From Escherichia phage Bf23, in the sequence record OR083247.1: 64,000 bases of DNA. One strand, given 5' to 3'. This document shows, piece by piece, positions 681 to 44,747 of the stretch. Position numbers and translations under genes: made by a program. The notes under the pieces were generated by a model that saw nothing but the letters and a program-made list of their open reading frames with translations, had not been told where the DNA came from and made no database searches. Position 1 is the first letter of the stretch. The number at the start of each line of letters is the position of its first letter.

Positions 681-757
681 TGGCGCGACCGATGGGATTT
701 GAACCCACATTCTCTCCCGTGACAGGGGAGTACCATTACCAAGCCAGCCCCGGTCGC
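681..757 (-). tRNA. tRNA-Asp(GTC)
   Basis: Acceptor GCGACCG/CGGTCGC, anticodon stem CTCCC/GGGAG, loop CTGTCAC, T-arm GTGGG/TTCAAAT/CCCAT, discriminator G, CCA encoded (TGG at 681-683 on plus). Confidence 0.8.
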
Positions 758-766
758 ATAATTTAT

Positions 767-952
767 TTACTCAGCTTTGAGTTTTTCAATAGCTGCATTA
801 AGTTCTTTAAGAAACTCTTTTCGTACATTAAGACGATTGAGACTTACTAGTATATCATGTTTAAGTTCTTCGATGTATTTCTTCTCAACTTCAATATTGT
901 TGATAGTGCTATCACGATGAACCTCTAGCTGTGCAATTACGTTCTTAGACAT
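767..952 (-). CDS. hypothetical small coiled-coil protein (61 aa)
   Basis: ORF track; charged heptad-like sequence. Confidence 0.35.
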   Translation of the reverse strand: MSKNVIAQLEVHRDSTINNIEVEKKYIEELKHDILVSLNRLNVRKEFLKELNAAIEKLKAE

Positions 953-1054
953 ACTTATTTCCTCAGTTATTAATGAAAATGGTATCTGTGGCTGAATTCG
1001 ATGTCAGCAATGATAGCTGGTTGGCTACCGGTTTACTTAACTCTACACAGAATT

Positions 1055-1132
1055 TGGCGGTTCCTGCTGGATTCGAACCAGCAACCCTCAACTTAACAAG
1101 ATGCCGCTCTAACCAATTAGAGCTAAGGAACC
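1055..1132 (-). tRNA. tRNA-Asn(GTT)
   Basis: Acceptor GGTTCCT/AGGAACC, D-arm GCTC..GAGC, loop TTGTTAA, T-arm GCTGG/TTCGAAT/CCAGC, discriminator G, CCA encoded; anticodon stem has mismatches (3 of 5 pairs). Confidence 0.6.
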
Positions 1133-1627
1133 ATATAAGTCAGAACTAGAGTTAATACGTTCTAGATATTTACTAAGATCTCTAGAATTTATACTAAACC
1201 ACTCATGTTCTTTTAAATCTTTGAAATACTGGTGAATTAGTTTTTCACCTTTTCGTTTGTCAAACCAAAAAGACCAATGCTCTAACTTATAATCCCTATA
1301 AGGGGAATAAGTCTGATATTGAGCTAATCTCTCTTTTGGATTTTGACTCATGCCTATTTTATACTGATTTTTCCATGCAGGATTACTAATACAGTATACA
1401 AAACCTTCAGAAATAGGAAGTTTATTTTCCTGCTTAAACTTTATAAAGGAAAGTGCAGCAAGTTTTCTCGAATACATAGTATTTGTATTCTTTTTGGTAT
1501 TACCATTGGTTCCTGAAAGATTTATATATTCTTCCATAAATCTTTGGATTAGTTCTGCAGTTATATAGAAGGGCTCATTAGTAACAACGCCTTTCTTTAC
1601 CAAACTATCAAAAACTTTTGTATGCAC
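1109..1627 (-). CDS. GIY-YIG / T5orf172-like domain protein (172 aa)
   Basis: Motif GFVYCISNP..YKIGMSQNP..RLAQYQT matches the GIY-YIG-like T5orf172 pattern; 3' end overlaps tRNA-Asn by about 24 nt. Confidence 0.55.
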   Translation of the reverse strand: MHTKVFDSLVKKGVVTNEPFYITAELIQRFMEEYINLSGTNGNTKKNTNTMYSRKLAALSFIKFKQENKLPISEGFVYCISNPAWKNQYKIGMSQNPKERLAQYQTYSPYRDYKLEHWSFWFDKRKGEKLIHQYFKDLKEHEWFSINSRDLSKYLERINSSSDLYGSLALIG

Positions 1628-1648
1628 TACGCCTTTCCTTTAGTAATT

Positions 1649-1724
1649 TGGACGACCGCATGAGATTTGAACTCACATAAAAAGGATTTGCAATCCTTCG
1701 CCTAAGCCATTCAGCCAACGGTCG
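1649..1724 (-). tRNA. tRNA-Cys(GCA)
   Basis: Anticodon stem AAGGA/TCCTT, loop TTGCAAA, T-arm GTGAG/TTCAAAT/CTCAT, acceptor 7 bp with one G-U, discriminator U73 (Cys identity element), CCA encoded. Confidence 0.8.
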
Positions 1725-1902
1725 ATTTATCTTGTTTTTCGAGATCTTCAAATTCTAAATCATTGAAGTTCCCTAGAGTACGGGAGTAGAACCCGTCTCC
1801 TGCGTCATAGCCTGATTTGCCACAATCACACATTTTAAATTCACGAAGATGTGTAAAAACATGTTCAGAACCACAACACTTAAATCTAACTAATCGTTTC
1901 AT
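1711..1902 (-). CDS. small Cys-rich protein, possible zinc ribbon (63 aa)
   Basis: CC..H..C.C spacing in the translated ORF; stop overlaps the tRNA-Cys 5' end. Confidence 0.4.
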   Translation of the reverse strand: MKRLVRFKCCGSEHVFTHLREFKMCDCGKSGYDAGDGFYSRTLGNFNDLEFEDLEKQDKSTVG

Positions 1903-1931
1903 TAGCTTCTCCAGTTCAATTTATGTAATTA

Positions 1932-2240
1932 TTATATAGAACTTTTGGAAACTAAGCAACTACATTTTTTTAAGAATTTGATGCCTTTCTTTTTCTTCTT
2001 ATATTTCCACGTTAATGGATTTTGTCGATTATGAACGCTTGAGATCTTTGTCTCGTCAAAGTTCTTCAATATCATGTAATCACAGGATAATTGTTTTAGT
2101 GGAATGTGATCCCCGTCAAAAGCGTATACATAAGGCTGTTGACTAGCACGATAATGATAGACTTTGTTAATTCTACGTTTCAGCGACTTATCCGCACAGT
2201 AAATAAAGAAGTTTTCAGGATGCACTAGCATCTCCTTCAA
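1932..2240 (-). CDS. hypothetical protein (102 aa)
   Basis: ORF track; lysine-rich C-terminus. Confidence 0.4.
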   Translation of the reverse strand: MKEMLVHPENFFIYCADKSLKRRINKVYHYRASQQPYVYAFDGDHIPLKQLSCDYMILKNFDETKISSVHNRQNPLTWKYKKKKKGIKFLKKCSCLVSKSSI

Positions 2241-2242
2241 TT

Positions 2243-2317
2243 TGGTGCACCCTGTTCGAATTGAACGAACCTCTCAAGCTCTTCAGGCAAGCGCTAATCC
2301 ATCTCAGCTAAAGGTGC
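2243..2317 (-). tRNA. tRNA-Phe(GAA)
   Basis: Acceptor GCACCTT/AGGGTGC (one G-U), D-stem GCTG/TAGC, loop CTGAAGA, T-arm GTTCG/TTCAATT/CGAAC, discriminator A73, CCA encoded; anticodon stem carries two U-U mismatches. Confidence 0.55.
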
Positions 2318-2323
2318 AAATTT

Positions 2324-2394
2324 TGGCAGGGGTAAAGGTATTCGAAACCTTTTCATGGGTTTTGTAGGCCCATTTGCAACCTATGCGTACCCCA
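2324..2394 (-). tRNA. tRNA-like gene, anticodon unassigned (short, possibly degenerate)
   Basis: CCA encoded, T-arm AAGGT/TTCGAAT/ACCTT, 6-bp acceptor GGGGTA/TACCCC; middle region only 35 nt and no canonical 7-nt anticodon loop resolved. Confidence 0.35.
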
Positions 2395-2403
2395 ATTGTT
2401 AAT

Positions 2404-2480
2404 TGGCGTCCTGTGCGGGGATCGAACCCGCAAACCCTACCTTGAAAGGGTAGTGACTTTACCCGTTTGTCTAACAGGAC
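2404..2480 (-). tRNA. tRNA-Glu(TTC)
   Basis: Perfect acceptor GTCCTGT/ACAGGAC, anticodon stem CTACC/GGTAG, loop CTTTCAA, T-arm GCGGG/TTCGATC/CCCGC, discriminator G, CCA encoded. Confidence 0.8.
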
Positions 2481-2486
2481 TTAAAT

Positions 2487-2574
2487 TGGTAGGGGAGGAT
2501 GGAGTCGAACCACCCGAGTCGCAATGACAACTAATTTACAGTCAGCTCTGCTACCACTTACAGAATACTCCCCC
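2487..2574 (-). tRNA. tRNA-Tyr(GTA), type II with long variable arm
   Basis: Anticodon loop CTGTAAA with stem GCTGA/TTAGT (two G-U), variable arm about 15 nt, T-arm GGTGG/TTCGACT/CCATC, discriminator A73, CCA encoded; 88 nt. Confidence 0.65.
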
Positions 2575-5870: not shown

Positions 5871-6338
5871 TTAAGTTTTAGTGACAACAGGTTTATAAAA
5901 CGTATGTCCCTTAATCTTAGTTGTTTTCTTAAACTTCTTTGTCCAGTAAGGTTTATCTTTACCACTATGGAAGTATAAAGCTCCATGTGTAGGATCTTGT
6001 GGTAAATCAACGTAGTATATCACTCTAGCTAAATTCTTGGCGGTTTGCCAAGCCTCATCGGTTTTATCAACTTTTGGCCTCTTAGATACCCAAGAGAACT
6101 GGTTAGACTGATATACTACTTTACAGTAGGAATCTGGAAATTTGCCGGAGTTTACACGGTTTTTAGTAACATGTGCAATCGCCGTCATTCCCTTTATGCC
6201 CTCACCACGACTTTCGAAATAGATATTTTTAGCAATGCAATCTATTTCTTTTGCATCGTGCGATGCCTGACTACTAAAGCTGAAGGTAAGGGCAGCTACT
6301 AAAAGCAAAGCTGCCTTCATTCGTTTTACTCCTGCCAA
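5871..6338 (-). CDS. secreted SleB/CwlJ-like cell-wall hydrolase (155 aa)
   Basis: N-terminal signal peptide (hydrophobic LLLVAALTFSFSSQA), then IYFESRGEG..G..AIAHVTKNR resembling the Hydrolase_2 core. Confidence 0.5.
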   Translation of the reverse strand: MAGVKRMKAALLLVAALTFSFSSQASHDAKEIDCIAKNIYFESRGEGIKGMTAIAHVTKNRVNSGKFPDSYCKVVYQSNQFSWVSKRPKVDKTDEAWQTAKNLARVIYYVDLPQDPTHGALYFHSGKDKPYWTKKFKKTTKIKGHTFYKPVVTKT

Positions 6339-6643
6339 TCGTATTCAATACGATTAGGGTTTTCTTTGTACCCCAAGTCAAGCAAATCATTACGCATAGT
6401 TTGCTTAGCTACGGGATTCGAGGTTACTAGTACCACTTTCTTTGGTCTCTGCCCAAATTCTAAGAGTAAACGAAGAATTTGATAACCTTCCATACCATCT
6501 ACAGCCAAATCGTTATCGAAATAAACAAAATGGCCAGTGGTATCAGTCTTATTCAGAAACTCAACAGCGGCTTCTGGGGTTCGAATGATAATGTCCATTC
6601 CGTGAAGATTACGCACATCATCAATCAAAATGTGAAAAGTCAT
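6326..6643 (-). CDS. CheY-like receiver (REC) domain-like protein (105 aa)
   Basis: HILIDDV .. FDNDL..DGMEGYQILRLL .. VVLVTSN pattern resembles receiver-domain acidic pocket, phosphoacceptor and T/S positions. Confidence 0.4.
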   Translation of the reverse strand: MTFHILIDDVRNLHGMDIIIRTPEAAVEFLNKTDTTGHFVYFDNDLAVDGMEGYQILRLLLEFGQRPKKVVLVTSNPVAKQTMRNDLLDLGYKENPNRIEYDWQE

Positions 6644-6702: not shown

Positions 6703-7085
6703 ATACATTTTTAAATTGTGAAACTAGTAAACCGATAAACAGCCTAGAGGCGCCACAGGCCATATCTTACGAGCCATGTACCTTTGATCTAGGGTTTGAA
6801 TCATCAACGAATACTTTGCATCTTTTAGCTTTAGAAGTTTAGAAGTTTGAGTTCTTTAAACTTTTCAGCTTTCATACTTAAATGTTGATCTTTGAAGTTG
6901 TGTCGGTAATATCAACGACTCTTTGTTTTTACGTGTCAGATTAAATGTCTGATGTAATAAACATAATCTCCAATAGATTATACTTTATAGTATGGTTAGC
7001 GGTCTTATTTAACCTCGTATTTCAACCGCTGCTGCGAGGTAAGATGCTTGGGCTTTCGTCTACCGATTTACTAGCTTTTAAATTA

Positions 7086-7724
7086 TTACTCTACTTCAAT
7101 GAAAGTAGAGGCGTTAGACTCGGACAGAACAAAATCAACATTTGTTGCAAAGTCCTGGTATTCCTCGTCATGCTGTTTAATCAGCTTCTCCAGTTCCAGC
7201 GGATCAATCAAGAATGGAGTATTCTTGAGTTCCAACAGGTTGAGCTGCATTTTAACTTCATCTTCGGAAGTTTTCTTATCGCGGGTAGCCATGCTATCCT
7301 GCAAACGCTCATATTTAGCATCAAACTGTGCTTTCTGCGTATTAAACTTAACCGTAGCGGCATGGAACTGCTTACGCATATTAGCCAGCAACTGAGCTTT
7401 AAGCTCCATAGAACGTTTAGCTTCAATTGCTTCTGCAACAGTCATTTTACGAGAACCAATCTCAACGATTGTTTCCGCATTGCTCTTAATCAAAGCAGCT
7501 TTGATTCGGTCACGCTGGGACATCATATCCAGCAGAGACTGGAAATCTGTCTTAATACGATTAGACAGATCTTCTACTTCGATTGCAGCGCCAACTACAA
7601 CCTGGTTTTTATCCTTACCCTCACCAACAGCGATCAGAAGCTGTTGTTCAGTAGCTTTACGGATTTTAGCTTCCAGAGATTTGATGGTTGCCAGAGCACG
7701 AGTTTTAGAAATACGAGTGGTCAT
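7086..7724 (-). CDS. hypothetical coiled-coil protein (212 aa)
   Basis: Charged heptad-rich sequence; co-directional with neighbours; preferred over the overlapping plus-strand ORF 6945-7742. Confidence 0.55.
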   Translation of the reverse strand: MTTRISKTRALATIKSLEAKIRKATEQQLLIAVGEGKDKNQVVVGAAIEVEDLSNRIKTDFQSLLDMMSQRDRIKAALIKSNAETIVEIGSRKMTVAEAIEAKRSMELKAQLLANMRKQFHAATVKFNTQKAQFDAKYERLQDSMATRDKKTSEDEVKMQLNLLELKNTPFLIDPLELEKLIKQHDEEYQDFATNVDFVLSESNASTFIEVE

Positions 7725-7776
7725 TGTTTCTTCCTTATATGAAGTTTAAGATTTGAATTTATTTAAAGTTGGCCTA

Positions 7777-7959
7777 TTACAGACCCATTGCCAGTAAGGT
7801 ACGCAGAACAGTATCTTTACTGTTATCAATTTTAGGGTTAGCACGATTTAGCAGATCAAAGATTTTCTGGACACCTGATTGACGTTCAACCATACGACGG
7901 ATACCCAGATTACGAGTAGCTTTCTTACCATTTTTACGAACATTTTTAGATACTGGCAT
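7777..7959 (-). CDS. small basic protein (60 aa)
   Basis: ORF track; K/R-rich. Confidence 0.4.
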   Translation of the reverse strand: MPVSKNVRKNGKKATRNLGIRRMVERQSGVQKIFDLLNRANPKIDNSKDTVLRTLLAMGL

Positions 7960-7999
7960 ATTTGTTTTCCTTTTATTGTTTTCTCAAATTTATGAATAT

Positions 8000-8028
8000 A
8001 TTATACAGAATTTTGGAGCCGGAAGCAA
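8000..8028 (-). promoter_or_regulatory. early promoter (-35 TTGCTT, 17-nt spacer, -10 TATAAT)
   Basis: Consensus hexamers on the minus strand. Confidence 0.6.
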
Positions 8029-8029
8029 A

Positions 8030-8731
8030 TCAAATTTTCATTTTTTCGATCATAGCTGCAACACAATAGCTCTCAACTAAGGCATCAAATGCTGGGTCGT
8101 GCTTAACCGGATAGATTCCATAACGAATGGTGTCCATCTTCTCCATCTTAGCTTTTGCCCAGCTAATCCCCTCTGCTTCTAGGTCTTTGTAACTATAACC
8201 AGCCTGCATCCAGAGATTGCGGAGAGATCGAACATTACCCAAATTCCAGAATTTCCACGGAATTATTTCCTCATGGGTTCCAGCATGAAACGTATTTGCA
8301 GAATAGATAGTCATATCAAATTCTGGGCCATTACCGTAGTATAGAGCATTTTCACCTAGAGCCAACTCCATAATGTTTTTAGCCATAGAATAAGCTGCAT
8401 AGTTAGAGCCGAGCTTATTAGTACAGTGATGTTTACCGTCTTGAAAAGCAATCAGCTTTGGATTGCATTCCTTCATAGCTTCCATAATATGTAGAGCTGA
8501 TGGGCTATTTTTAGCTTGATCCATCCAGAATGCTAGGGTAGATGCCGTAACTTTAGCTCCAGAATTAAGCTGATCTTGTACATCCAAAGTAACAAACACT
8601 AGATCAGGATCTTTATCAATTCCATGCATAGCCACAAAAGCGAAAGAAGGCATTACGATATGAGTAGTACCGCAATCTCCCGGAGTTCCTAGAGATTCAA
8701 TATCTAACATACCAAATGGTTTTACTTTCAT
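8030..8731 (-). CDS. DEDDh-type 3'-5' exonuclease-like protein (233 aa)
   Basis: Exo I-like MLDIESLG, Exo II-like N..PEFD, Exo III-like HDPAFDA. Confidence 0.5.
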   Translation of the reverse strand: MKVKPFGMLDIESLGTPGDCGTTHIVMPSFAFVAMHGIDKDPDLVFVTLDVQDQLNSGAKVTASTLAFWMDQAKNSPSALHIMEAMKECNPKLIAFQDGKHHCTNKLGSNYAAYSMAKNIMELALGENALYYGNGPEFDMTIYSANTFHAGTHEEIIPWKFWNLGNVRSLRNLWMQAGYSYKDLEAEGISWAKAKMEKMDTIRYGIYPVKHDPAFDALVESYCVAAMIEKMKI

Positions 8732-8759
8732 AACTTATCCTTTATTGTGTAGAAAACTA

Positions 8760-8996
8760 TTAAAGAGCTGTCTCTTTAATAGACTCCCACTTCTTGGGGT
8801 CTTTAAAACCAGGAAGCATATCTTCACTAACATCCCAGTTTTCTTCCATAGAAAAGTCTGGCCATTCATTCCAGCTACCTTCTAGCTCTTCATAACAGGT
8901 ATCCATTACCTCATGACTAGAAAGTCGTGTATAATCTCTAGCGGACTTATGAGTGCTAGCACGGTTAAAATCATTCTTTGCTACAAAATTACGCAT
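8760..8996 (-). CDS. hypothetical acidic protein (78 aa)
   Basis: ORF track. Confidence 0.4.
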   Translation of the reverse strand: MRNFVAKNDFNRASTHKSARDYTRLSSHEVMDTCYEELEGSWNEWPDFSMEENWDVSEDMLPGFKDPKKWESIKETAL

Positions 8997-9037
8997 AGTT
9001 TCTCCGAACTAAGAGGGGCTTTCGCCCCTCTTATCTA

Positions 9038-9553
9038 TTACTTCGCTTTACGTTTACGAGCTGGTTTAGCAGATTTACGAGCAGAATCACCCGTGAACTT
9101 AATGCCTACACCGTAACACAGAGCACGAACATTATCTTTACTATACTCTACGCCAAAGATATTTGGCTTAACAGAACCAAACTGTCCACGAGTATCACGC
9201 AATACATCTGCCGTTGGTTTGCGTTTCTGGTTAACTGCTTTCTCGTAATCTTTCATGGCCATGCCATTACGAGGGAACAATTCTGCTCCAGCATTGAAAC
9301 TCAGTGTTACTGGAACAGATTTGTGACCATAACCCTGTACATAGGTCACAAGGCGGGCTACAGAACGAGTAGCATTCTTAGCCTTCGGCTTTTGACGAAT
9401 CGGAGCCGGATGATTCAGTGCCTGTGCAGCTTGAGCATCAGTAGGGTGCTTGCGCAGGTGGCGTTCCAGACGAGCTTTGCGGTTAGCCTCAGTCTGCGGG
9501 AAAGTTTTAACTGTAGTAGCTGCTTGAGTTTTTGCGTTTTTCTGCTTAGCCAT
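9038..9553 (-). CDS. hypothetical basic protein (171 aa)
   Basis: ORF track; Lys/Arg-rich termini. Confidence 0.5.
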   Translation of the reverse strand: MAKQKNAKTQAATTVKTFPQTEANRKARLERHLRKHPTDAQAAQALNHPAPIRQKPKAKNATRSVARLVTYVQGYGHKSVPVTLSFNAGAELFPRNGMAMKDYEKAVNQKRKPTADVLRDTRGQFGSVKPNIFGVEYSKDNVRALCYGVGIKFTGDSARKSAKPARKRKAK

Positions 9554-9591
9554 TATTTGTTTTCCTTTTTGTTTATCAATTTATGAAGTAT

Positions 9592-9620
9592 ATTATACGA
9601 GAATTTGAAGCGTTTAGCAA
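9592..9620 (-). promoter_or_regulatory. early promoter (-35 TTGCTA, 17-nt spacer, -10 TATAAT)
   Basis: Consensus hexamers upstream of the 9038-9553 gene. Confidence 0.6.
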
Positions 9621-9636
9621 ATGAATTTTTTAAAAA

Positions 9637-9915
9637 TTATCTGCCGACCAGCTTAGCTTGTTCTTCATCAGAAACGTATTGATATGCACCCTTGTTATAC
9701 GCCGGAGCAGTACACATTTTCTTACGCTCAATCTCTTCTTGAGCTTTTCTTTCGCGTTCAGCTAATTCTTCATCCAGATAAACTAAACGTTGTTCTGGAG
9801 GAGGTGGAAGACGTGTTTCTGGCTCACCAATATTAGCCTTTCTTATTTGACGAGGTGATTGTGCACGTTTTCTCAACGGTTTAAATCCTAATGAATTTGA
9901 GTTATAAATTCGCAT
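9637..9915 (-). CDS. hypothetical protein (92 aa)
   Basis: ORF track. Confidence 0.4.
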   Translation of the reverse strand: MRIYNSNSLGFKPLRKRAQSPRQIRKANIGEPETRLPPPPEQRLVYLDEELAERERKAQEEIERKKMCTAPAYNKGAYQYVSDEEQAKLVGR

Positions 9916-9991
9916 AAAGCCCTCCTCACTTTCAATATGAATATTATACTAAATTAGAGGGCTTTAAGCAAGAAGATTTTTAATTTATTTA

Positions 9992-10468
9992 TCACATCTC
10001 AGCAAGTTCTTGCTCAGTAATAACTGTATTACATAGTGCATCTACAGCTTCATTACCACTAATTCCTGAGTGCCCTTTTACCTTAATAAAAGTAGGATTA
10101 GTATTGTGGAAGTTAATGTATTGCTGAGTTAATTTAAATGCTTCTTGCCAAAGCTCTAGATTAAGAGGGATTTCACCATCTGCTTTCTTCCAGCCTTTCC
10201 TCTGCCAAGAAAACATCCAACTTTCCATACCATTTTTGCAATAAGCAGAATCAGTATAGATAACAATTGGTCTATTATCTTTTTTAACTGACCAACGTAG
10301 AGCCTCTACAATAGCCGTGAGTTCCATCTCATTATTTGTAGTTTTAGGACTATATCCAGATTTAGAACCTAGACGATCGTCGTTATCATCATAGACAATA
10401 AAACCCCAAGCACCTAAACCCGGATTGCCTTTACATGCACCATCTGTATATATATGAAATGTACTCAT
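9992..10468 (-). CDS. rnh: ribonuclease H
   Basis: IYTDGACKGNPG..TNNEMEL..YTDS..G..W..W..KGH clearly aligns with RNase HI. Confidence 0.85.
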   Translation of the reverse strand: MSTFHIYTDGACKGNPGLGAWGFIVYDDNDDRLGSKSGYSPKTTNNEMELTAIVEALRWSVKKDNRPIVIYTDSAYCKNGMESWMFSWQRKGWKKADGEIPLNLELWQEAFKLTQQYINFHNTNPTFIKVKGHSGISGNEAVDALCNTVITEQELAEM

Positions 10469-11010
10469 CTATTAAGTTCCTCTAATGTAGGATAATAGTT
10501 ATTATAAAATGTTTCTTCTACAGCATCTTTACCATGTAACTCATGTCGCAAGGTATTTGCTTTTAATACGGCGTTCTCTAAATCTAGATATTCGAATATT
10601 CCACCATAAATATTCTTACCCTCACAATTTATTATCTGTACTTGCCACTTTTGTAGCTGTTTATTCCAATGTACTCCTAAGTACCCTGATTTGCTAGAGG
10701 CAGTGCAGTTTCTATTATTAATTTGACTAGTAGATTCTCTTAAATTTTTCCATCTATTATCTGACCGTATACGATTTATATGATCTACTAAGTCAGGAAT
10801 ACTTCCTGTCATATACAGAAATGCCAGTCTATGGGCTAGATAATCTACCTTATCTATTTTTATAGTTATATAACCATCTTTTCTTAAATAGCCAGCAACT
10901 GCTCCGGCTTTACCTCCCCTACCTCTACTTATTTTATTAGTAAATATTCCAGTATCGGGATCATAATTTAGAAGTTCTTTTAATCTCTCTAGTGTCGGTT
11001 GTTTACTCAT
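10465..11010 (-). CDS. HNH endonuclease with AP2-like DNA-binding domain (181 aa)
   Basis: HNH-like DHINRIRSDNRWKNL and AP2-like GYLGVHWNKQLQKWQVQI; sits between rnh and the thyA side. Confidence 0.65.
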   Translation of the reverse strand: MSKQPTLERLKELLNYDPDTGIFTNKISRGRGGKAGAVAGYLRKDGYITIKIDKVDYLAHRLAFLYMTGSIPDLVDHINRIRSDNRWKNLRESTSQINNRNCTASSKSGYLGVHWNKQLQKWQVQIINCEGKNIYGGIFEYLDLENAVLKANTLRHELHGKDAVEETFYNNYYPTLEELNR

Positions 11011-11485: not shown

Positions 11486-12325
11486 TTAAGAGGACATTTT
11501 AGCTTTAAGAGCTGGATGAGGATCATACCCCTCTAAATGGAATGACCAAGCTGCTGTATTATTTTCTAATAAATCGTAAAGATCTACAAACTCTGGCATT
11601 ACTAGAGTTGGCAGAGGGCGTGGCTTGCGTTTTACCTGTTCTTCTACCTGTTCCATGTGGTCATTATAGATATGAGTATCACCGCCACTAAAGATAAGAT
11701 AACGAGGTTTTAATCCTGTCAGTTTTGCTAATATATGCGTTAATAAAGCATAACTAGCAATATTGAAAGGTAAACCGAGGAAACAATCCACAGAACGTTG
11801 TGTCCATTTAAGATCTAGGTATCCATCGTTACTTACATAGCACTGGAAGCCGTAGTGACAGGGTGGTAATGCCATTTTATCAAGTTCAGCTACGTTCCAT
11901 GCAGAAACTAGATGTCTGCGGCCATGAGGATTATTCTTGAGTCCTTCAATAAGTTCTAGAATCTGATCTCGCCCACCAAAGTTGCGCCACTGTTTACCAT
12001 ATACTGGTCCTAGATTACCCTTATCATACCCCATACTTATAGCTTGGTCTTCATAATTTGGAGTCCAGATGGTCCACTGTCCTTCGTCACGACCAAATGT
12101 GAATACACGTAGATCATGGAGATTTGTGGAACCAGACAAGAACCATAAGAGTTCTCCTACTACTGATTTCCAGGCCAGGCGTTTAGTAGTTACAGCCGGG
12201 AATCCCTCACGTAGGTCGAACTTAGCATAGGAATCAAAAATCGAAACTGTGCCCGTTCCTGTACGATCGTTACGTGGTTCACCTAGTAAAATTACATCTG
12301 TCAAAATTTTTAAGTATTGTTGCAT
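11486..12325 (-). CDS. thyA: thymidylate synthase
   Basis: Conserved PPCH..FQ and LPFNIASYALLTH..GGDTHIYNDH motifs. Confidence 0.9.
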   Translation of the reverse strand: MQQYLKILTDVILLGEPRNDRTGTGTVSIFDSYAKFDLREGFPAVTTKRLAWKSVVGELLWFLSGSTNLHDLRVFTFGRDEGQWTIWTPNYEDQAISMGYDKGNLGPVYGKQWRNFGGRDQILELIEGLKNNPHGRRHLVSAWNVAELDKMALPPCHYGFQCYVSNDGYLDLKWTQRSVDCFLGLPFNIASYALLTHILAKLTGLKPRYLIFSGGDTHIYNDHMEQVEEQVKRKPRPLPTLVMPEFVDLYDLLENNTAAWSFHLEGYDPHPALKAKMSS

Positions 12326-34432: not shown

Positions 34433-37000
34433 TTGAAAATCGCAGTAGTTGATAAAGCTCTAAACAACACTCGTTATGATAAACATTTCCAGCTATACGG
34501 CGAGGAAGTTGATGTATTCCATATGTGTAACGAGAAGTTATCCGGTCGTTTGCTCAAAAAGCATATTACCATCGGGACTCCGGAAAACCCATTTGACCCA
34601 AATGATTATGATTTTGTTATACTGGTAGGTGCCGAACCTTTCCTGTACTTTGCAGGTAAGAAAGGTATTGGTGATTATACCGGTAAACGTGTAGAGTATA
34701 ATGGATATGCTAACTGGATTGCGAGTATCAGCCCAGCCCAGTTACACTTTAAACCTGAAATGAAACCAGTTTTTGATGCAACAGTAGAGAATATCCACGA
34801 TATTATCAACGGTCGTGAGAAGATTGCAAAAGCTGGTGATTACCGTCCTATTACTGACCCTGATGAGGCAGAAGAATATATCAAGATGGTGTATAATATG
34901 GTTATCGGACCTGTCGCATTCGACTCCGAAACCTCAGCACTATACTGTCGAGATGGTTATCTGCTTGGTGTTTCTATGTCTCACCAAGAGTATCAGGGTG
35001 TATATATCGATTCTGATTGTCTCACAGAGGTTGCAGTATATTATCTCCAGAAAATTCTGGATAGTGAAAACCACACTATTGTTTTTCACAACTTGAAGTT
35101 TGATATGCACTTTTATAAGTACCATCTGGGGCTTACTTTTGATAAAGCACATAAAGAACGCAGGCTCCATGATACCATGTTGCAGCACTATGTTCTAGAT
35201 GAACGTCGTGGTACTCATGGCTTGAAGTCTCTAGCAATGAAGTATACCGATATGGGTGACTATGACTTTGAACTGGATAAGTTCAAAGATGATTACTGCA
35301 AAGCACATAAAATCAAGAAAGAAGATTTCACCTATGATTTAATTCCGTTTGATATTATGTGGCCTTACGCTGCGAAAGATACAGATGCCACCATACGTTT
35401 GCACAACTTCTTCTTACCAAAGATTGAGAAGAATGAAAAACTTTGCAGTCTGTATTACGATGTTTTGATGCCTGGTTGCGTATTCTTGCAACGTGTTGAA
35501 GATCGTGGTGTACCTATTTCTATCGATCGTTTAAAAGAAGCTCAGTATCAGTTAACCCATAATCTGAATAAAGCCCGTGAGAAACTGTACACTTATCCAG
35601 AAGTTAAACAGCTAGAACAAGATCAGAATGAAGCGTTTAACCCGAACTCTGTTAAGCAACTTCGTGTTCTTCTGTTCGATTATGTTGGTTTGACTCCAAC
35701 TGGTAAGTTAACAGATACTGGGGCAGATTCTACGGATGCAGAAGCTCTGAATGAACTGGCTACGCAGCATCCGATTGCTAAAACTCTTCTAGAGATTCGT
35801 AAGCTGACTAAGCTAATCTCTACTTATGTTGAGAAGATTCTTCTGAGTATTGATGCAGATGGTTGCATTCGTACTGGTTTTCATGAACATATGACTACTT
35901 CTGGTCGTCTGAGTTCTTCTGGCAAACTGAACCTGCAACAGTTACCCCGTGATGAATCTATTATCAAAGGTTGTGTAGTAGCTCCTCCTGGGTATCGTGT
36001 AATCGCGTGGGACTTAACAACTGCGGAAGTTTATTATGCTGCTGTTCTATCTGGGGATAGAAATATGCAACAGGTATTTATCAACATGAGAAATGAACCT
36101 GATAAATACCCAGACTTCCACTCTAACATCGCACACATGGTGTTTAAGCTGCAATGCGAACCCCGTGATGTTAAGAAGTTGTTCCCAGCACTACGTCAGG
36201 CAGCTAAGGCAATTACCTTTGGTATTTTGTATGGTTCTGGCCCAGCTAAAGTAGCTCATTCTGTTAATGAGGCTCTTCTGGAACAGTCTGCTAAAACAGG
36301 CGAACCGTTTGTTGAATGTACTGTTGCGGATGCGAAGGACTATATCGAAACTTACTTCGGTCAGTTCCCACAGCTTAAGCGTTGGATTGATAAGTGCCAC
36401 GATCAGATCAAGAATCATGGATTTATCTATAGTCACTTTGGTCGTAAACGTCGTCTGCATAATATCCATTCCGAAGACCGTGGCGTTCAGGGTGAAGAAA
36501 TTCGTTCTGGATTTAACGCAATCATTCAGTCTGCTTCTTCTGATAGTCTCCTTTTAGGTGCTGTAGATGCAGATAATGAGATCATTTCTCTTGGCTTAGA
36601 ACAAGAGATGAAGATTGTTATGCTGGTTCATGACTCCGTAGTTGCTATTGTTCGCGAGGATTTGATCGACCAGTACAATGAAATCCTGATTCGTAATATT
36701 CAGAAAGACCGTGGTATCAGTATTCCTGGCTGTCCTATTGGTATTGATTCAGATTCTGAAGCTGGAGGTTCTCGTGACTATTCTTGTGGTAAGATGAAGA
36801 AACAGCACCCATCAATCGCTTGTATTGATGATGATGAATATACTCGTTATGTCAAGGGTGTATTACTTGATGCAGAGTTCGAGTATAAGAAACTAGCTGC
36901 AATGGATAAAGAGCATCCAGACCACAGCAAGTACAAGGATGATAAGTTTATTGCTGTATGTAAAGATCTGGATAACGTGAAAAGGATTCTCGGTGCTTAA
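34433..37000 (+). CDS. DNA polymerase, family A (T5 DNA polymerase-like, 855 aa), TTG start
   Basis: 3'-5' exonuclease motifs; motif A-like DL..AE, motif B KAITFGILYG, motif C LVHDS; length matches the T5 polymerase as I recall it. Confidence 0.9.
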   Translation: MKIAVVDKALNNTRYDKHFQLYGEEVDVFHMCNEKLSGRLLKKHITIGTPENPFDPNDYDFVILVGAEPFLYFAGKKGIGDYTGKRVEYNGYANWIASISPAQLHFKPEMKPVFDATVENIHDIINGREKIAKAGDYRPITDPDEAEEYIKMVYNMVIGPVAFDSETSALYCRDGYLLGVSMSHQEYQGVYIDSDCLTEVAVYYLQKILDSENHTIVFHNLKFDMHFYKYHLGLTFDKAHKERRLHDTMLQHYVLDERRGTHGLKSLAMKYTDMGDYDFELDKFKDDYCKAHKIKKEDFTYDLIPFDIMWPYAAKDTDATIRLHNFFLPKIEKNEKLCSLYYDVLMPGCVFLQRVEDRGVPISIDRLKEAQYQLTHNLNKAREKLYTYPEVKQLEQDQNEAFNPNSVKQLRVLLFDYVGLTPTGKLTDTGADSTDAEALNELATQHPIAKTLLEIRKLTKLISTYVEKILLSIDADGCIRTGFHEHMTTSGRLSSSGKLNLQQLPRDESIIKGCVVAPPGYRVIAWDLTTAEVYYAAVLSGDRNMQQVFINMRNEPDKYPDFHSNIAHMVFKLQCEPRDVKKLFPALRQAAKAITFGILYGSGPAKVAHSVNEALLEQSAKTGEPFVECTVADAKDYIETYFGQFPQLKRWIDKCHDQIKNHGFIYSHFGRKRRLHNIHSEDRGVQGEEIRSGFNAIIQSASSDSLLLGAVDADNEIISLGLEQEMKIVMLVHDSVVAIVREDLIDQYNEILIRNIQKDRGISIPGCPIGIDSDSEAGGSRDYSCGKMKKQHPSIACIDDDEYTRYVKGVLLDAEFEYKKLAAMDKEHPDHSKYKDDKFIAVCKDLDNVKRILGA

Positions 37001-44304: not shown

Positions 44305-44747
44305 TTAAAATTAAATTAACTCATCCAGATTGTATGCCTAAGATTGGTTCCGAAGATGCCGCAGGTATGGATCTGCGGGCATTCTTTGGTACTAACCCTG
44401 CAGCGGATTTACGTGCTATTGCACCAGGCAAATCCCTAATGATTGACACCGGTGTTGCGGTAGAAATTCCGCGAGGTTGGTTCGGTTTAGTGGTTCCGCG
44501 TAGTTCTTTAGGAAAGCGCCATTTGATGATCGCAAACACCGCAGGAGTGATCGACTCAGACTATCGTGGAACTATTAAGATGAACCTGTTCAACTACGGT
44601 TCTGAAATTCAAACTCTGGAGAATTTCGAGAGACTTTGTCAACTAGTGGTACTACCACATTACTCAACCCATAATTTTAAAATCGTTGACGAACTAGAGG
44701 AGACTATTCGTGGAGAAGGTGGATTTGGAAGCTCAGGAAGCAAGTAA
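44301..44747 (+). CDS. dut: dUTPase
   Basis: Motifs AGMDLRA, G..D.DYRG, RGEGGFGSSG. Confidence 0.85.
   Translation: MIKIKLTHPDCMPKIGSEDAAGMDLRAFFGTNPAADLRAIAPGKSLMIDTGVAVEIPRGWFGLVVPRSSLGKRHLMIANTAGVIDSDYRGTIKMNLFNYGSEIQTLENFERLCQLVVLPHYSTHNFKIVDELEETIRGEGGFGSSGSK

What the first reader, a model, noticed from the sequence alone, without database searches (positions are those of the whole stretch)
8030..8731. Early DEDDh-type 3'-5' exonuclease-like protein outside the replication module
The ORF shows three motifs reminiscent of DnaQ/oligoribonuclease-type exonucleases (DIE, N..PEFD, H..A.DA). It sits among small early genes rather than with the polymerase, whose own proofreading domain is intact. 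A stand-alone exonuclease could degrade host nucleic acids or defence-derived signalling oligonucleotides; the latter is speculation.
Basis: inference. Interest (0 to 1): 0.5.

Follow-up and report, generated by a model that had tools for sequence, protein, structure and literature searches.

The report
T5-type DexA-like 3'-5' exonuclease gene
The ORF is a real, well-conserved stand-alone 3'-5' exonuclease gene of a T5-like phage. It is the ortholog of T5 gene T5.087, a distant relative of phage T4 DexA, already labelled "exonuclease" in RefSeq, so it is ordinary although never studied at the bench.

Summary

The gene is the last in an early operon driven by the T5 P-H207 promoter, after a basic DUF7022 protein and a small acidic DUF7230 protein. 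In Klebsiella T5-like phages DUF7230 is fused to the exonuclease. The operon lies beside RNase H, thymidylate synthase and ribonucleotide reductase genes, 26 kb from the polymerase.

The most likely mechanism is two-metal 3'-to-5' trimming of single-stranded nucleic acid ends to mononucleotides, serving phage nucleic-acid turnover. Whether the substrate is DNA or RNA is unresolved. Nothing supports degradation of cyclic signalling oligonucleotides. The old "metallopeptidase" label is an error. Low novelty.

The parts
8030..8731 (-). Exonuclease ORF, 233 aa, 26 kDa, pI 5.7. Ortholog of T5.087 (YP_006915.1). PF16473 Rv2179c-like / DexA-like DEDDh 3'-5' exonuclease.
8696..8704 (-). Exo I motif, codons D10-I11-E12, at the end of strand beta1 (residues 6-12 of the model).
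   Evidence: Invariant in A1 and A3. Aligns to DexA D7/E9. Secondary structure.
8315..8332 (-). Exo II motif, codons N134-G-P-E-F-D139. D139 sits at the N-terminus of helix 138-148.
   Evidence: G133, N134, G135, F138 and D139 are invariant in A1. D139 aligns to DexA D119.
8084..8101 (-). Exo III motif, codons H211-D-P-A-F-D216 (H-x4-D, the 'h' subtype), at the start of the C-terminal helix 213-231.
   Evidence: Invariant in A1. Aligns to DexA H186/D191.
8738..8742 (-). Shine-Dalgarno AAGGA, 6 nt upstream of the ATG.
   Evidence: Read directly from the sequence.
8760..8996 (-). Upstream partner ORF, 78 aa, acidic (pI 4.7). T5.088 ortholog. DUF7230-like conserved N-terminal peptide MRNFVAKNDFNRASTHKS. 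Fused to the exonuclease in other T5-like phages.
9038..9553 (-). First gene of the operon: DUF7022 protein, 171 aa, very basic (pI 10.8). T5.089 ortholog. Function unknown.
   Evidence: (PF22887, E=2.5e-77)
9592..9620 (-). Early promoter equivalent to T5 P-H207 (TTGCTA-17-TATAAT). The hexamers and surrounding sequence are the same as in T5; the 121-base comparison is 97% identical.
9010..9033 (-). G+C-rich hairpin (10-bp stem, GAAA loop) between DUF7022 and the DUF7230 gene, with no clear T-run on the coding strand. Possibly an RNA stability element or a leaky terminator.
8000..8028 (-). Next promoter (TTGCTT-17-TATAAT), starting 2 nt after the exonuclease stop codon. It corresponds to the promoter annotated at T5 44393-44467 and marks the 3' boundary of the unit.
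   Evidence: Sequence read. T5 annotation.

Best explanation
The ORF encodes an active stand-alone DEDDh (DnaQ-like) 3'-to-5' exonuclease of the Rv2179c-like/DexA family. It is the T5.087 ortholog of a T5-like phage.

Mechanism (inferred from the family): D10, E12, D139 and D216 hold two Mg2+ ions, and H211 activates the attacking water. The enzyme removes 5'-mononucleotides one at a time from a free 3'-OH end of single-stranded nucleic acid.

Expression (shown by homology to annotated T5 features): it is made early, from the P-H207 promoter, together with a basic DUF7022 protein and a small acidic DUF7230 protein. DUF7230 probably associates with the enzyme, because the two are one polypeptide in Klebsiella T5-like phages.

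Role (inferred): the analogue of T4 DexA. It would degrade oligonucleotides and trim 3' ends during phage DNA replication, recombination and nucleotide supply, next to RNase H, Thy, DHFR and NrdAB. Whether DNA or RNA is preferred is not resolved.
For: Family and fold:
- PF16473 scores above the gathering threshold, and PHROG 255 'exonuclease' scores 1e-51.
- T4 DexA is itself a PF16473 member at 79.9 bits.
- The AF2 model has pLDDT 91 and pTM 0.91.
- Foldseek's top PDB hit is RNase T, E=7.7e-5.

Catalytic residues:
- The five residues are invariant in the close subfamily.
- They align to DexA D7/E9/D119/H186/D191, which the DexA structure paper names as its catalytic set (PMC12153337).
- Extra family motifs are shared with DexA: T-x-x-F/W-W and P-W/C-K-F-W-N...R-S/T.

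Selection and context:
- The protein is under purifying selection.
- Synteny nrdA-nrdB-(frd)-thy-...-rnh-...-DUF7022-(DUF7230)-exonuclease holds in T5, in a Klebsiella phage and in two distant metagenomic demerecvirus-like contigs.
- DUF7230::exonuclease fusions occur in 5 protein clusters, one with 136 members. PHROG 255 spans both parts.
- The promoter's hexamers and surrounding sequence match T5 P-H207.
Against: - There is no biochemical or genetic datum on T5.087 or any ortholog in the searchable literature.
- The model's coordinates could not be inspected, so the clustering of the five residues is inferred from fold superposition and motif placement, not measured.
- Identity to DexA is only 17%, and the profile comparison gives 46% probability, E=2e-4. 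Orthology of function is therefore an analogy.
- The residues DexA uses for tetramer formation (S87, D90) and 5hmC recognition (D169) are not kept.
- From established T5 biology (my knowledge): host DNA is destroyed in the pre-early phase and its products are excreted. A DexA-style 'host DNA scavenging' role therefore fits T5 less well than T4.
- The Pfam family is named after an exoribonuclease, so RNA may be the true substrate.
Confidence: 0.6

Rival explanations
1. It is mainly an exoribonuclease, like the family's founder Rv2179c or like RNase T/Orn. It would degrade RNA 3' ends: primer fragments released by the neighbouring RNase H, host RNA turned into NMPs that feed the adjacent ribonucleotide reductases, or 3' trimming of the phage's many tRNA precursors.
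For: - The Pfam family is defined by an exoribonuclease.
- The gene lies 1.3 kb from rnh and next to nrdAB/nrdD.
- A tRNA cluster lies 5.5 kb away.
- T5 cannot reuse host DNA (my knowledge), so ribonucleotides are its precursor source.
Against: - DEDDh enzymes often act on both nucleic acids, so neither fold nor motifs discriminate.
- There is no direct evidence.
Confidence: 0.25
2. It is a counter-defence nuclease. It would destroy nucleic acids made by host immunity (retron msDNA, DRT cDNA, linear oligonucleotide signals, or linearised cyclic signals), with the DUF7230 peptide targeting it.
For: - Neighbouring genes in this and related phages carry domains predicted to work in conflict or RNA repair: cREC_REC at 6326..6643, and NADAR and 'Sequestin' in L004/L005 (PMC9503650).
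- The conserved, apparently disordered DUF7230 peptide looks like a protein-binding module.
Against: - A 3'-5' exonuclease needs a free 3'-OH, so intact cyclic oligonucleotides are not substrates (established knowledge).
- Known phage enzymes against such signals have other folds: 2H, MBL, ring nuclease (my knowledge).
- There is no PADLOC hit and no literature link.
- Reported T5 escape mutants for retron Ec78 map to D15, not to this gene.
- The gene is found in all sampled T5-like lineages at a fixed position beside nucleotide-metabolism genes. That is unlike typical accessory anti-defence genes.
Confidence: 0.1
3. It is a metallopeptidase. This is the original GenBank annotation of T5.087 (match to IPR000834), still copied into many T5-like genomes.
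For: Only the legacy annotation.
Against: - A Pfam scan to E=1 returns only PF16473 and no peptidase family.
- The fold is RNase H-like DEDDh.
- The one HxxE in the protein (H81-I-M-E84) is not conserved among homologs.
Confidence: 0.01
4. It is a trans-acting proofreading subunit (epsilon-like) for a polymerase.
Against: The phage's family A polymerase has its own complete PF01612 exonuclease domain. The gene is 26 kb away on the other strand. The closest structure is DexA, not epsilon.
Confidence: 0.03

Closest known systems
Bacteriophage T4 DexA (exonuclease A; PDB 8kel; PMC12153337)
   Same: - Similar size, 233 vs 227 aa.
- All five catalytic residues align.
- Shared accessory motifs include the Trp equivalent to DexA W152 (W162 here).
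- Both are early, non-polymerase phage exonucleases.
   Different: - Only 17% identity, and the profile match is weak (46% probability).
- DexA residues for tetramer switching (S87, D90) and 5hmC recognition (D169) are not conserved, consistent with T5 DNA being unmodified.
- T4 has no DUF7230 or DUF7022 partner: dexA.1 and dexA.2 are unrelated.
- T5 does not recycle host DNA (my knowledge), so the physiological role may differ.
[not shown]
   Different: - Rv2179c is a shorter bacterial exoribonuclease (155 residues in the chain).
- The phage protein has about 60 to 80 extra residues, including a beta-hairpin at 92-106 and a helix at 181-199.
- In the 1.8-billion-protein library only 12 representatives match the T5.087 profile at E<=1e-30, against 844 at E<=1e-3. 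The T5.087 type is therefore a narrow subfamily.
E. coli RNase T / oligoribonuclease (REXO2) / DnaQ epsilon: classical DEDDh exonucleases
   Same: Fold and the three Exo motifs with an H-x4-D third motif.
   Different: No detectable sequence similarity by phmmer or hmmsearch against the PDB. They belong to different Pfam families (PF00929).
T5.087 (YP_006915.1) of phage T5 and PHROG 255
   Same: 95% identical ortholog in the same genomic position. RefSeq already names it 'exonuclease'.
   Different: Nothing material: 11 amino-acid substitutions, five of them at residues 87-102 in and just before the variable hairpin.

Membership tests
DEDDh (DnaQ-like) 3'-5' exonuclease superfamily | RNase H-like alpha/beta fold | tested here: met
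   [not shown]
DEDDh (DnaQ-like) 3'-5' exonuclease superfamily | Exo I motif D-x-E on the first beta strand | tested here: met
   D10/E12 are invariant. Strand 6-12.
DEDDh (DnaQ-like) 3'-5' exonuclease superfamily | Exo II acidic residue at a helix N-terminus | tested here: met
   D139 is invariant. Helix 138-148.
DEDDh (DnaQ-like) 3'-5' exonuclease superfamily | Exo III motif H-x4-D (His rather than Tyr) | tested here: met
   H211 and D216 are invariant in A1 and at least 90% conserved in A3.
DEDDh (DnaQ-like) 3'-5' exonuclease superfamily | The five residues converge on a two-metal site | tested here: inconclusive
   Model coordinates are not exposed by the tools. Inferred only from superposition on DexA (2.8 A) and one-to-one alignment of the catalytic residues.
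DEDDh (DnaQ-like) 3'-5' exonuclease superfamily | Mg2+-dependent 3'-5' exonuclease activity | not testable with these tools
   Needs enzymology.
Pfam PF16473 Rv2179c-like | Score at or above the curated gathering threshold | tested here: met
   32.3 bits against 27, residues 8-180. Precomputed PF16473 on 25 of 29 homologs.
Pfam PF16473 Rv2179c-like | Exoribonuclease activity on RNA 3' ends | not testable with these tools
T4 DexA-type exonuclease (functional equivalence) | Closest solved structure and aligned catalytic set D7/E9/D119/H186/D191 | tested here: met
   DexA residues taken from PMC12153337.
T4 DexA-type exonuclease (functional equivalence) | Significant sequence-profile relationship | tested here: inconclusive
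   hhalign probability 46%, E=2e-4, covering motifs I and II only. 17% identity in MAFFT.
T4 DexA-type exonuclease (functional equivalence) | 5hmC-recognition pair W152/D169 and tetramer residues S87/D90 | tested here: not met
   W152 corresponds to W162 and is kept. D169 corresponds to K198, S87 to N90 and D90 to N105, none kept. The alignment is uncertain in these loops.
T4 DexA-type exonuclease (functional equivalence) | Role in oligonucleotide and host-DNA breakdown for nucleotide supply | not testable with these tools
   Needs genetics and pool measurements.
Phage nucleases of cyclic-oligonucleotide immune signals (Acb1, Apyc1, ring nucleases) | 2H, MBL or ring-nuclease fold; cleavage without need of a free 3' end | tested here: not met
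   [not shown]
Peptidase M14 / metallopeptidase (legacy annotation) | Peptidase domain match and conserved zinc ligands | tested here: not met
   No peptidase family in Pfam to E=1. H81xxE84 is not conserved in homologs.

The most novel reading that the evidence does not exclude
The exonuclease and its DUF7230 partner (separate here, fused in Klebsiella T5-like phages) form a targeted nuclease. The conserved, apparently disordered N-terminal peptide would dock it onto a host or phage factor. Its real job would be counter-defence: removing 3'-ended nucleic acids made by host immunity (retron msDNA, DRT cDNA, linear or linearised oligonucleotide signals). It would work alongside the nearby cREC protein, and the NADAR and 'Sequestin' proteins of related phages, rather than in housekeeping nucleotide recycling.
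Probability: 0.1. Interest if true: 0.6.

Novelty: already known. Interest (0 to 1): 0.2.

Why it matters
Mostly as a correction and a pointer.

1. The enzyme class is settled. It is a DexA/Rv2179c-type DEDDh exonuclease found in all sampled lineages of T5-like phages. The 'metallopeptidase' label that still spreads through many deposited T5-like genomes is wrong.
2. No one appears to have studied this protein, although it sits behind one of the strong classical T5 early promoters.
3. The gene fusion with DUF7230 and the fixed operon with DUF7022 give two uncharacterised proteins a testable functional link.

If the enzyme turned out to act on RNA or on defence-made nucleic acids, it would help explain how T5 obtains precursors after discarding host DNA, or how it resists many defence systems. 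Nothing here shows that.

Tried and rejected
- Sequence-only searches of the PDB, with the single protein and with the 24-sequence profile, found nothing meaningful: armadillo repeats and PCNA at E around 0.01 to 1. Only fold comparison linked the protein to solved structures.
- PADLOC and NCBIfam gave no hit for the exonuclease or its neighbours.
- Literature searches for T5.087, T5p085/086, T5.088/089, DUF7230, DUF7022, Rv2179c plus phage, DEDDh plus anti-defense, and T5 escape mutants found no study of this gene.
- I tested whether T4 dexA.1 or dexA.2, the small genes upstream of dexA, are DUF7230 homologs. They are not.
- I predicted the natural DUF7230::exonuclease fusion (P0025) to see whether the N-terminal part docks on the nuclease. 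Residues 1-80 came out with low confidence (pLDDT 38-63, apart from one helix), so no docking mode can be claimed.
- I looked for model coordinates to measure carboxylate distances. They are not available to scripts.
- One paper search ('Sequestin'/'cREC' with min_terms 1) returned only irrelevant hits.

Full report
**What the window is.** The region around the finding is about 95% identical in DNA to bacteriophage T5. Window 7000-10459 corresponds to T5 NC_005859 43419-46880, and the best match is Escherichia phage vB_EcoS_ESCO30 at 96.1%. The window is therefore a T5-like phage (Tequintavirus, Demerecviridae). The ORF in question corresponds to T5.087 (YP_006915.1). RefSeq calls it 'exonuclease'. 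The original GenBank record called it 'putative metallopeptidase', on a match to InterPro IPR000834.

**The observation.**
- ORF 8030..8731 on the minus strand is 233 aa, with an ATG start preceded by AAGGA six bases upstream.
- Compared with T5, the 44 nucleotide differences fall 8/2/34 by codon position, with 29 synonymous and 11 non-synonymous codon changes. The reading frame is therefore under purifying selection.

**Family assignment.**
- Pfam gives a single hit, PF16473 'Rv2179c-like 3'-5' exoribonuclease', at 32.3 bits against a gathering score of 27.
- PHROGs gives phrog_255 'exonuclease' at E=1.2e-51.
- No peptidase family appears even at E=1. The only HxxE in the protein (H81-E84) is not conserved in homologs. 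The 'metallopeptidase' name, still attached to many orthologs, is a propagated error.
- In 24 homologs down to 34% identity, D10, E12, D139, H211 and D216 are invariant.
- In a wider alignment bridging to T4 DexA, D10, E12 and D139 stay invariant, and H211 and D216 are kept in at least 90% of sequences.

**Structure.**
- An AlphaFold2 model built on that alignment has mean pLDDT 91.1 and pTM 0.91.
- The motifs sit where a DEDDh enzyme has them: D-x-E at the end of strand 6-12, D139 at the N-terminus of helix 138-148, and H-x4-D at the start of the last helix, 213-231.
- Next come RNase T (13.6), human REXO2 (13.6), ERI1 (13.6), the CBASS-associated exonuclease Cap18 (13.5), DnaQ epsilon (13.1), and an M. 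tuberculosis chain, 4hec_A (12.0), which I take from memory to be Rv2179c.
- Foldseek against the PDB gave RNase T, E=7.7e-5.
- Sequence-only PDB searches found nothing.
- T4 DexA is itself a PF16473 member at 79.9 bits.
- In the MAFFT alignment, DexA D7/E9/D119/H186/D191 fall on D10/E12/D139/H211/D216. The DexA structure paper names D7, D119, D191 and H186 as catalytic (PMC12153337).
- The two proteins also share non-catalytic motifs, such as STxxFWM / STIEWW and PWKFWN..R[ST] / PCKFWN..RT.
- I could not measure inter-residue distances because model coordinates are not exposed. The 'DEDD geometry' is therefore inferred from superposition and alignment.

**How wide the family is.**
- A full HMMER scan of 1.84 billion representatives gave 844 proteins at E<=1e-3, but only 34 at E<=1e-10 and 12 at E<=1e-30. 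The T5.087 type is a narrow subfamily inside the broad Rv2179c-like family.
- In the phage collection the protein is found in 584 records. At 88-99% identity these are mostly Escherichia and Salmonella T5-like phages.
- At 33-39% identity it occurs in Klebsiella and Serratia T5-like phages, and at about 27% in Escherichia jumbo phages.
- BFVD fold matches show DexA-like exonucleases across many phage groups.

**Genomic setting.**
- The phage DNA polymerase is at 34433..37000 (+), with PF00476 plus a complete PF01612 proofreading domain.
- The flap endonuclease D15, the SbcCD-like pair and the helicases are at 31-44 kb.
- It is not isolated, however. Upstream on the same strand lie RNase H (9992..10468), an HNH endonuclease, thymidylate synthase (11486..12325), and, by homology to T5, DHFR and NrdAB.
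- The order nrdA-nrdB-(frd)-thy-...-rnh-...-DUF7022-(small ORF)-exonuclease recurs in a Klebsiella T5-like phage and in two distant metagenomic contigs, whose exonucleases are only 36-43% identical.
- The immediate transcription unit starts at a promoter whose hexamers and surrounding sequence match T5's annotated P-H207: TTGCTA-17-TATAAT, 9620-9592.
- The unit contains three genes. The first is a very basic DUF7022 protein (9038..9553, pI 10.8), followed by a G+C-rich hairpin (9010-9033). The second is a small acidic protein with a DUF7230-type N-terminus (8760..8996, pI 4.7). The third is the exonuclease.
- A further promoter (TTGCTT-17-TATAAT, 8028-8000) begins two bases after the stop codon, matching a promoter annotated in T5.

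**A gene fusion.**
- Five homolog clusters (P0015, P0017, P0021, P0023 and P0025, the last with 136 member sequences) carry the DUF7230 protein as an N-terminal extension of the exonuclease.
- In Klebsiella phage vB_Kpn_K7_rec22 this is one 334-aa CDS annotated 'exonuclease'.
- PHROG 255's profile covers both parts.
- DUF7230 proteins and the exonuclease occur in almost the same set of phage records, 606 against 584. The motif also occurs alone in Phapecoctavirus phages, with no annotated exonuclease within 4 kb.
- The fusion argues that the two proteins act together.
- A model of the fusion gives the nuclease domain high confidence, but residues 1-80 score pLDDT 38-63 apart from one helix. 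The partner looks like a flexible peptide that folds on binding something. What it binds is unknown.
- T4's dexA.1 and dexA.2 are unrelated to it.

**Mechanism and role.**
- Shown: family membership, fold, conserved catalytic residues, purifying selection, operon structure and synteny.
- Inferred from the family: two-metal hydrolysis from a free 3'-OH, releasing 5'-mononucleotides, with His211 as general base.
- Inferred from analogy and context: a DexA-like job in phage nucleic-acid turnover. DexA degrades DNA 3'-5' and supports nucleotide supply and recombination in T4 (PMC12153337).
- Caveat: T5 differs from T4. From my knowledge of T5 biology, host DNA is destroyed and exported during the pre-early phase, and phage dNTPs come from ribonucleotide reduction. 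RNA (primer fragments, host RNA) is therefore a serious alternative substrate. The tools cannot decide between them.
- The residues DexA uses for 5hmC recognition (D169) and tetramer switching (S87, D90) are not kept, as expected for a phage with unmodified DNA.

- Degradation of defence-derived signalling oligonucleotides is not supported. A DEDDh exonuclease needs a free 3' end.
- The fold is unlike the known phage enzymes that cut cyclic signals (my knowledge).
- PADLOC gives no hit.
- The literature searches found nothing on this gene. Published T5 escape mutants for retron Ec78 lie in D15.
- A weaker version cannot be excluded: action on linear defence-made nucleic acids. It draws a little colour from nearby genes with predicted conflict or RNA-repair domains. 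These are cREC_REC in the window, and NADAR and 'Sequestin' in related phages. I give it about 10%.

**Verdict.** This is a correct reading of a real gene, but the gene is the known T5.087 exonuclease of a T5-like phage, in a known family, with a solved relative. The modest new points are the refuted peptidase label, the DUF7230 fusion with the DUF7022/DUF7230/exonuclease operon, and the complete lack of experimental work. Interest is low (0.2).

Noticed in passing
window 6326..6643 (-): The 105-aa ORF (T5.084 ortholog, 'hypothetical') matches Pfam PF20274 cREC_REC, 'cyclic-phosphate processing receiver domain' (E=9e-15, 55 bits). That domain is predicted, but not shown, to resolve 2',3'-cyclic phosphates on RNA ends or ADPr>P in phage RNA-repair and counter-defence contexts (PMC9503650). 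It stays within 2-3 kb of the exonuclease in two distant relatives (L004, L005), though in different order.
   Followed up: partly
window 8760..8996 (-); L004 8001-8975; L007 5001-6005; L006 4001-4171: The small acidic protein has a strongly conserved N-terminal peptide, MRNFVAKNDFNRA.THKS (DUF7230). It is a separate gene in Escherichia and Salmonella T5-like phages, fused to the exonuclease in Klebsiella T5-like phages, and present as a lone 56-aa protein next to a tRNA cluster in Phapecoctavirus phages. AlphaFold gives it low confidence, so it may be a binding peptide.
   Followed up: partly
window 9038..9553 (-): DUF7022 protein: 171 aa, pI 10.8, Lys/Arg-rich at both ends. It is the first gene behind the strong early promoter P-H207 and is always found just upstream of the exonuclease in related phages. 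Function unknown; it looks like a nucleic-acid-binding protein.
   Followed up: partly
window 10465..11010 (-): A 181-aa HNH endonuclease ORF (PHROG 99, E=7.5e-62) sits between rnh and thy and overlaps the rnh start by 4 bases. T5 has no gene there, and the T5 alignment stops at window 10459. It is probably a homing-endonuclease insertion specific to this lineage.
   Followed up: partly
window 7086..7724 (-): The T5.085 ortholog (212 aa) is labelled 'tail fiber protein' in RefSeq and PHROG 1491. It lies in the early region, on the early strand, among metabolic genes, and has no Pfam match. The structural label looks doubtful.
   Followed up: no
window 9010..9033: A perfect 10-bp G+C-rich hairpin with a GAAA loop lies between the DUF7022 and DUF7230 genes. 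There is no T-run on the coding strand. It may be a leaky terminator or an mRNA-stabilising or processing element that sets the ratio of DUF7022 to the two downstream proteins.
   Followed up: no
L004 5619-6107 and 7498-7695; L005 10803-11033: Distant T5-like contigs carry extra small genes in the same neighbourhood with Pfam NADAR (ADP-ribose processing) and 'Sequestin' (PF21825) domains. The window lacks them. This stretch seems to be a hot spot for accessory genes that may act in host-phage conflict.
   Followed up: no
window 681..2574 (-): Six tRNA genes (Asp, Asn, Cys, Phe, Glu, Tyr) from the T5-type tRNA cluster lie about 5.5 kb from the exonuclease on the same strand.
   Followed up: no
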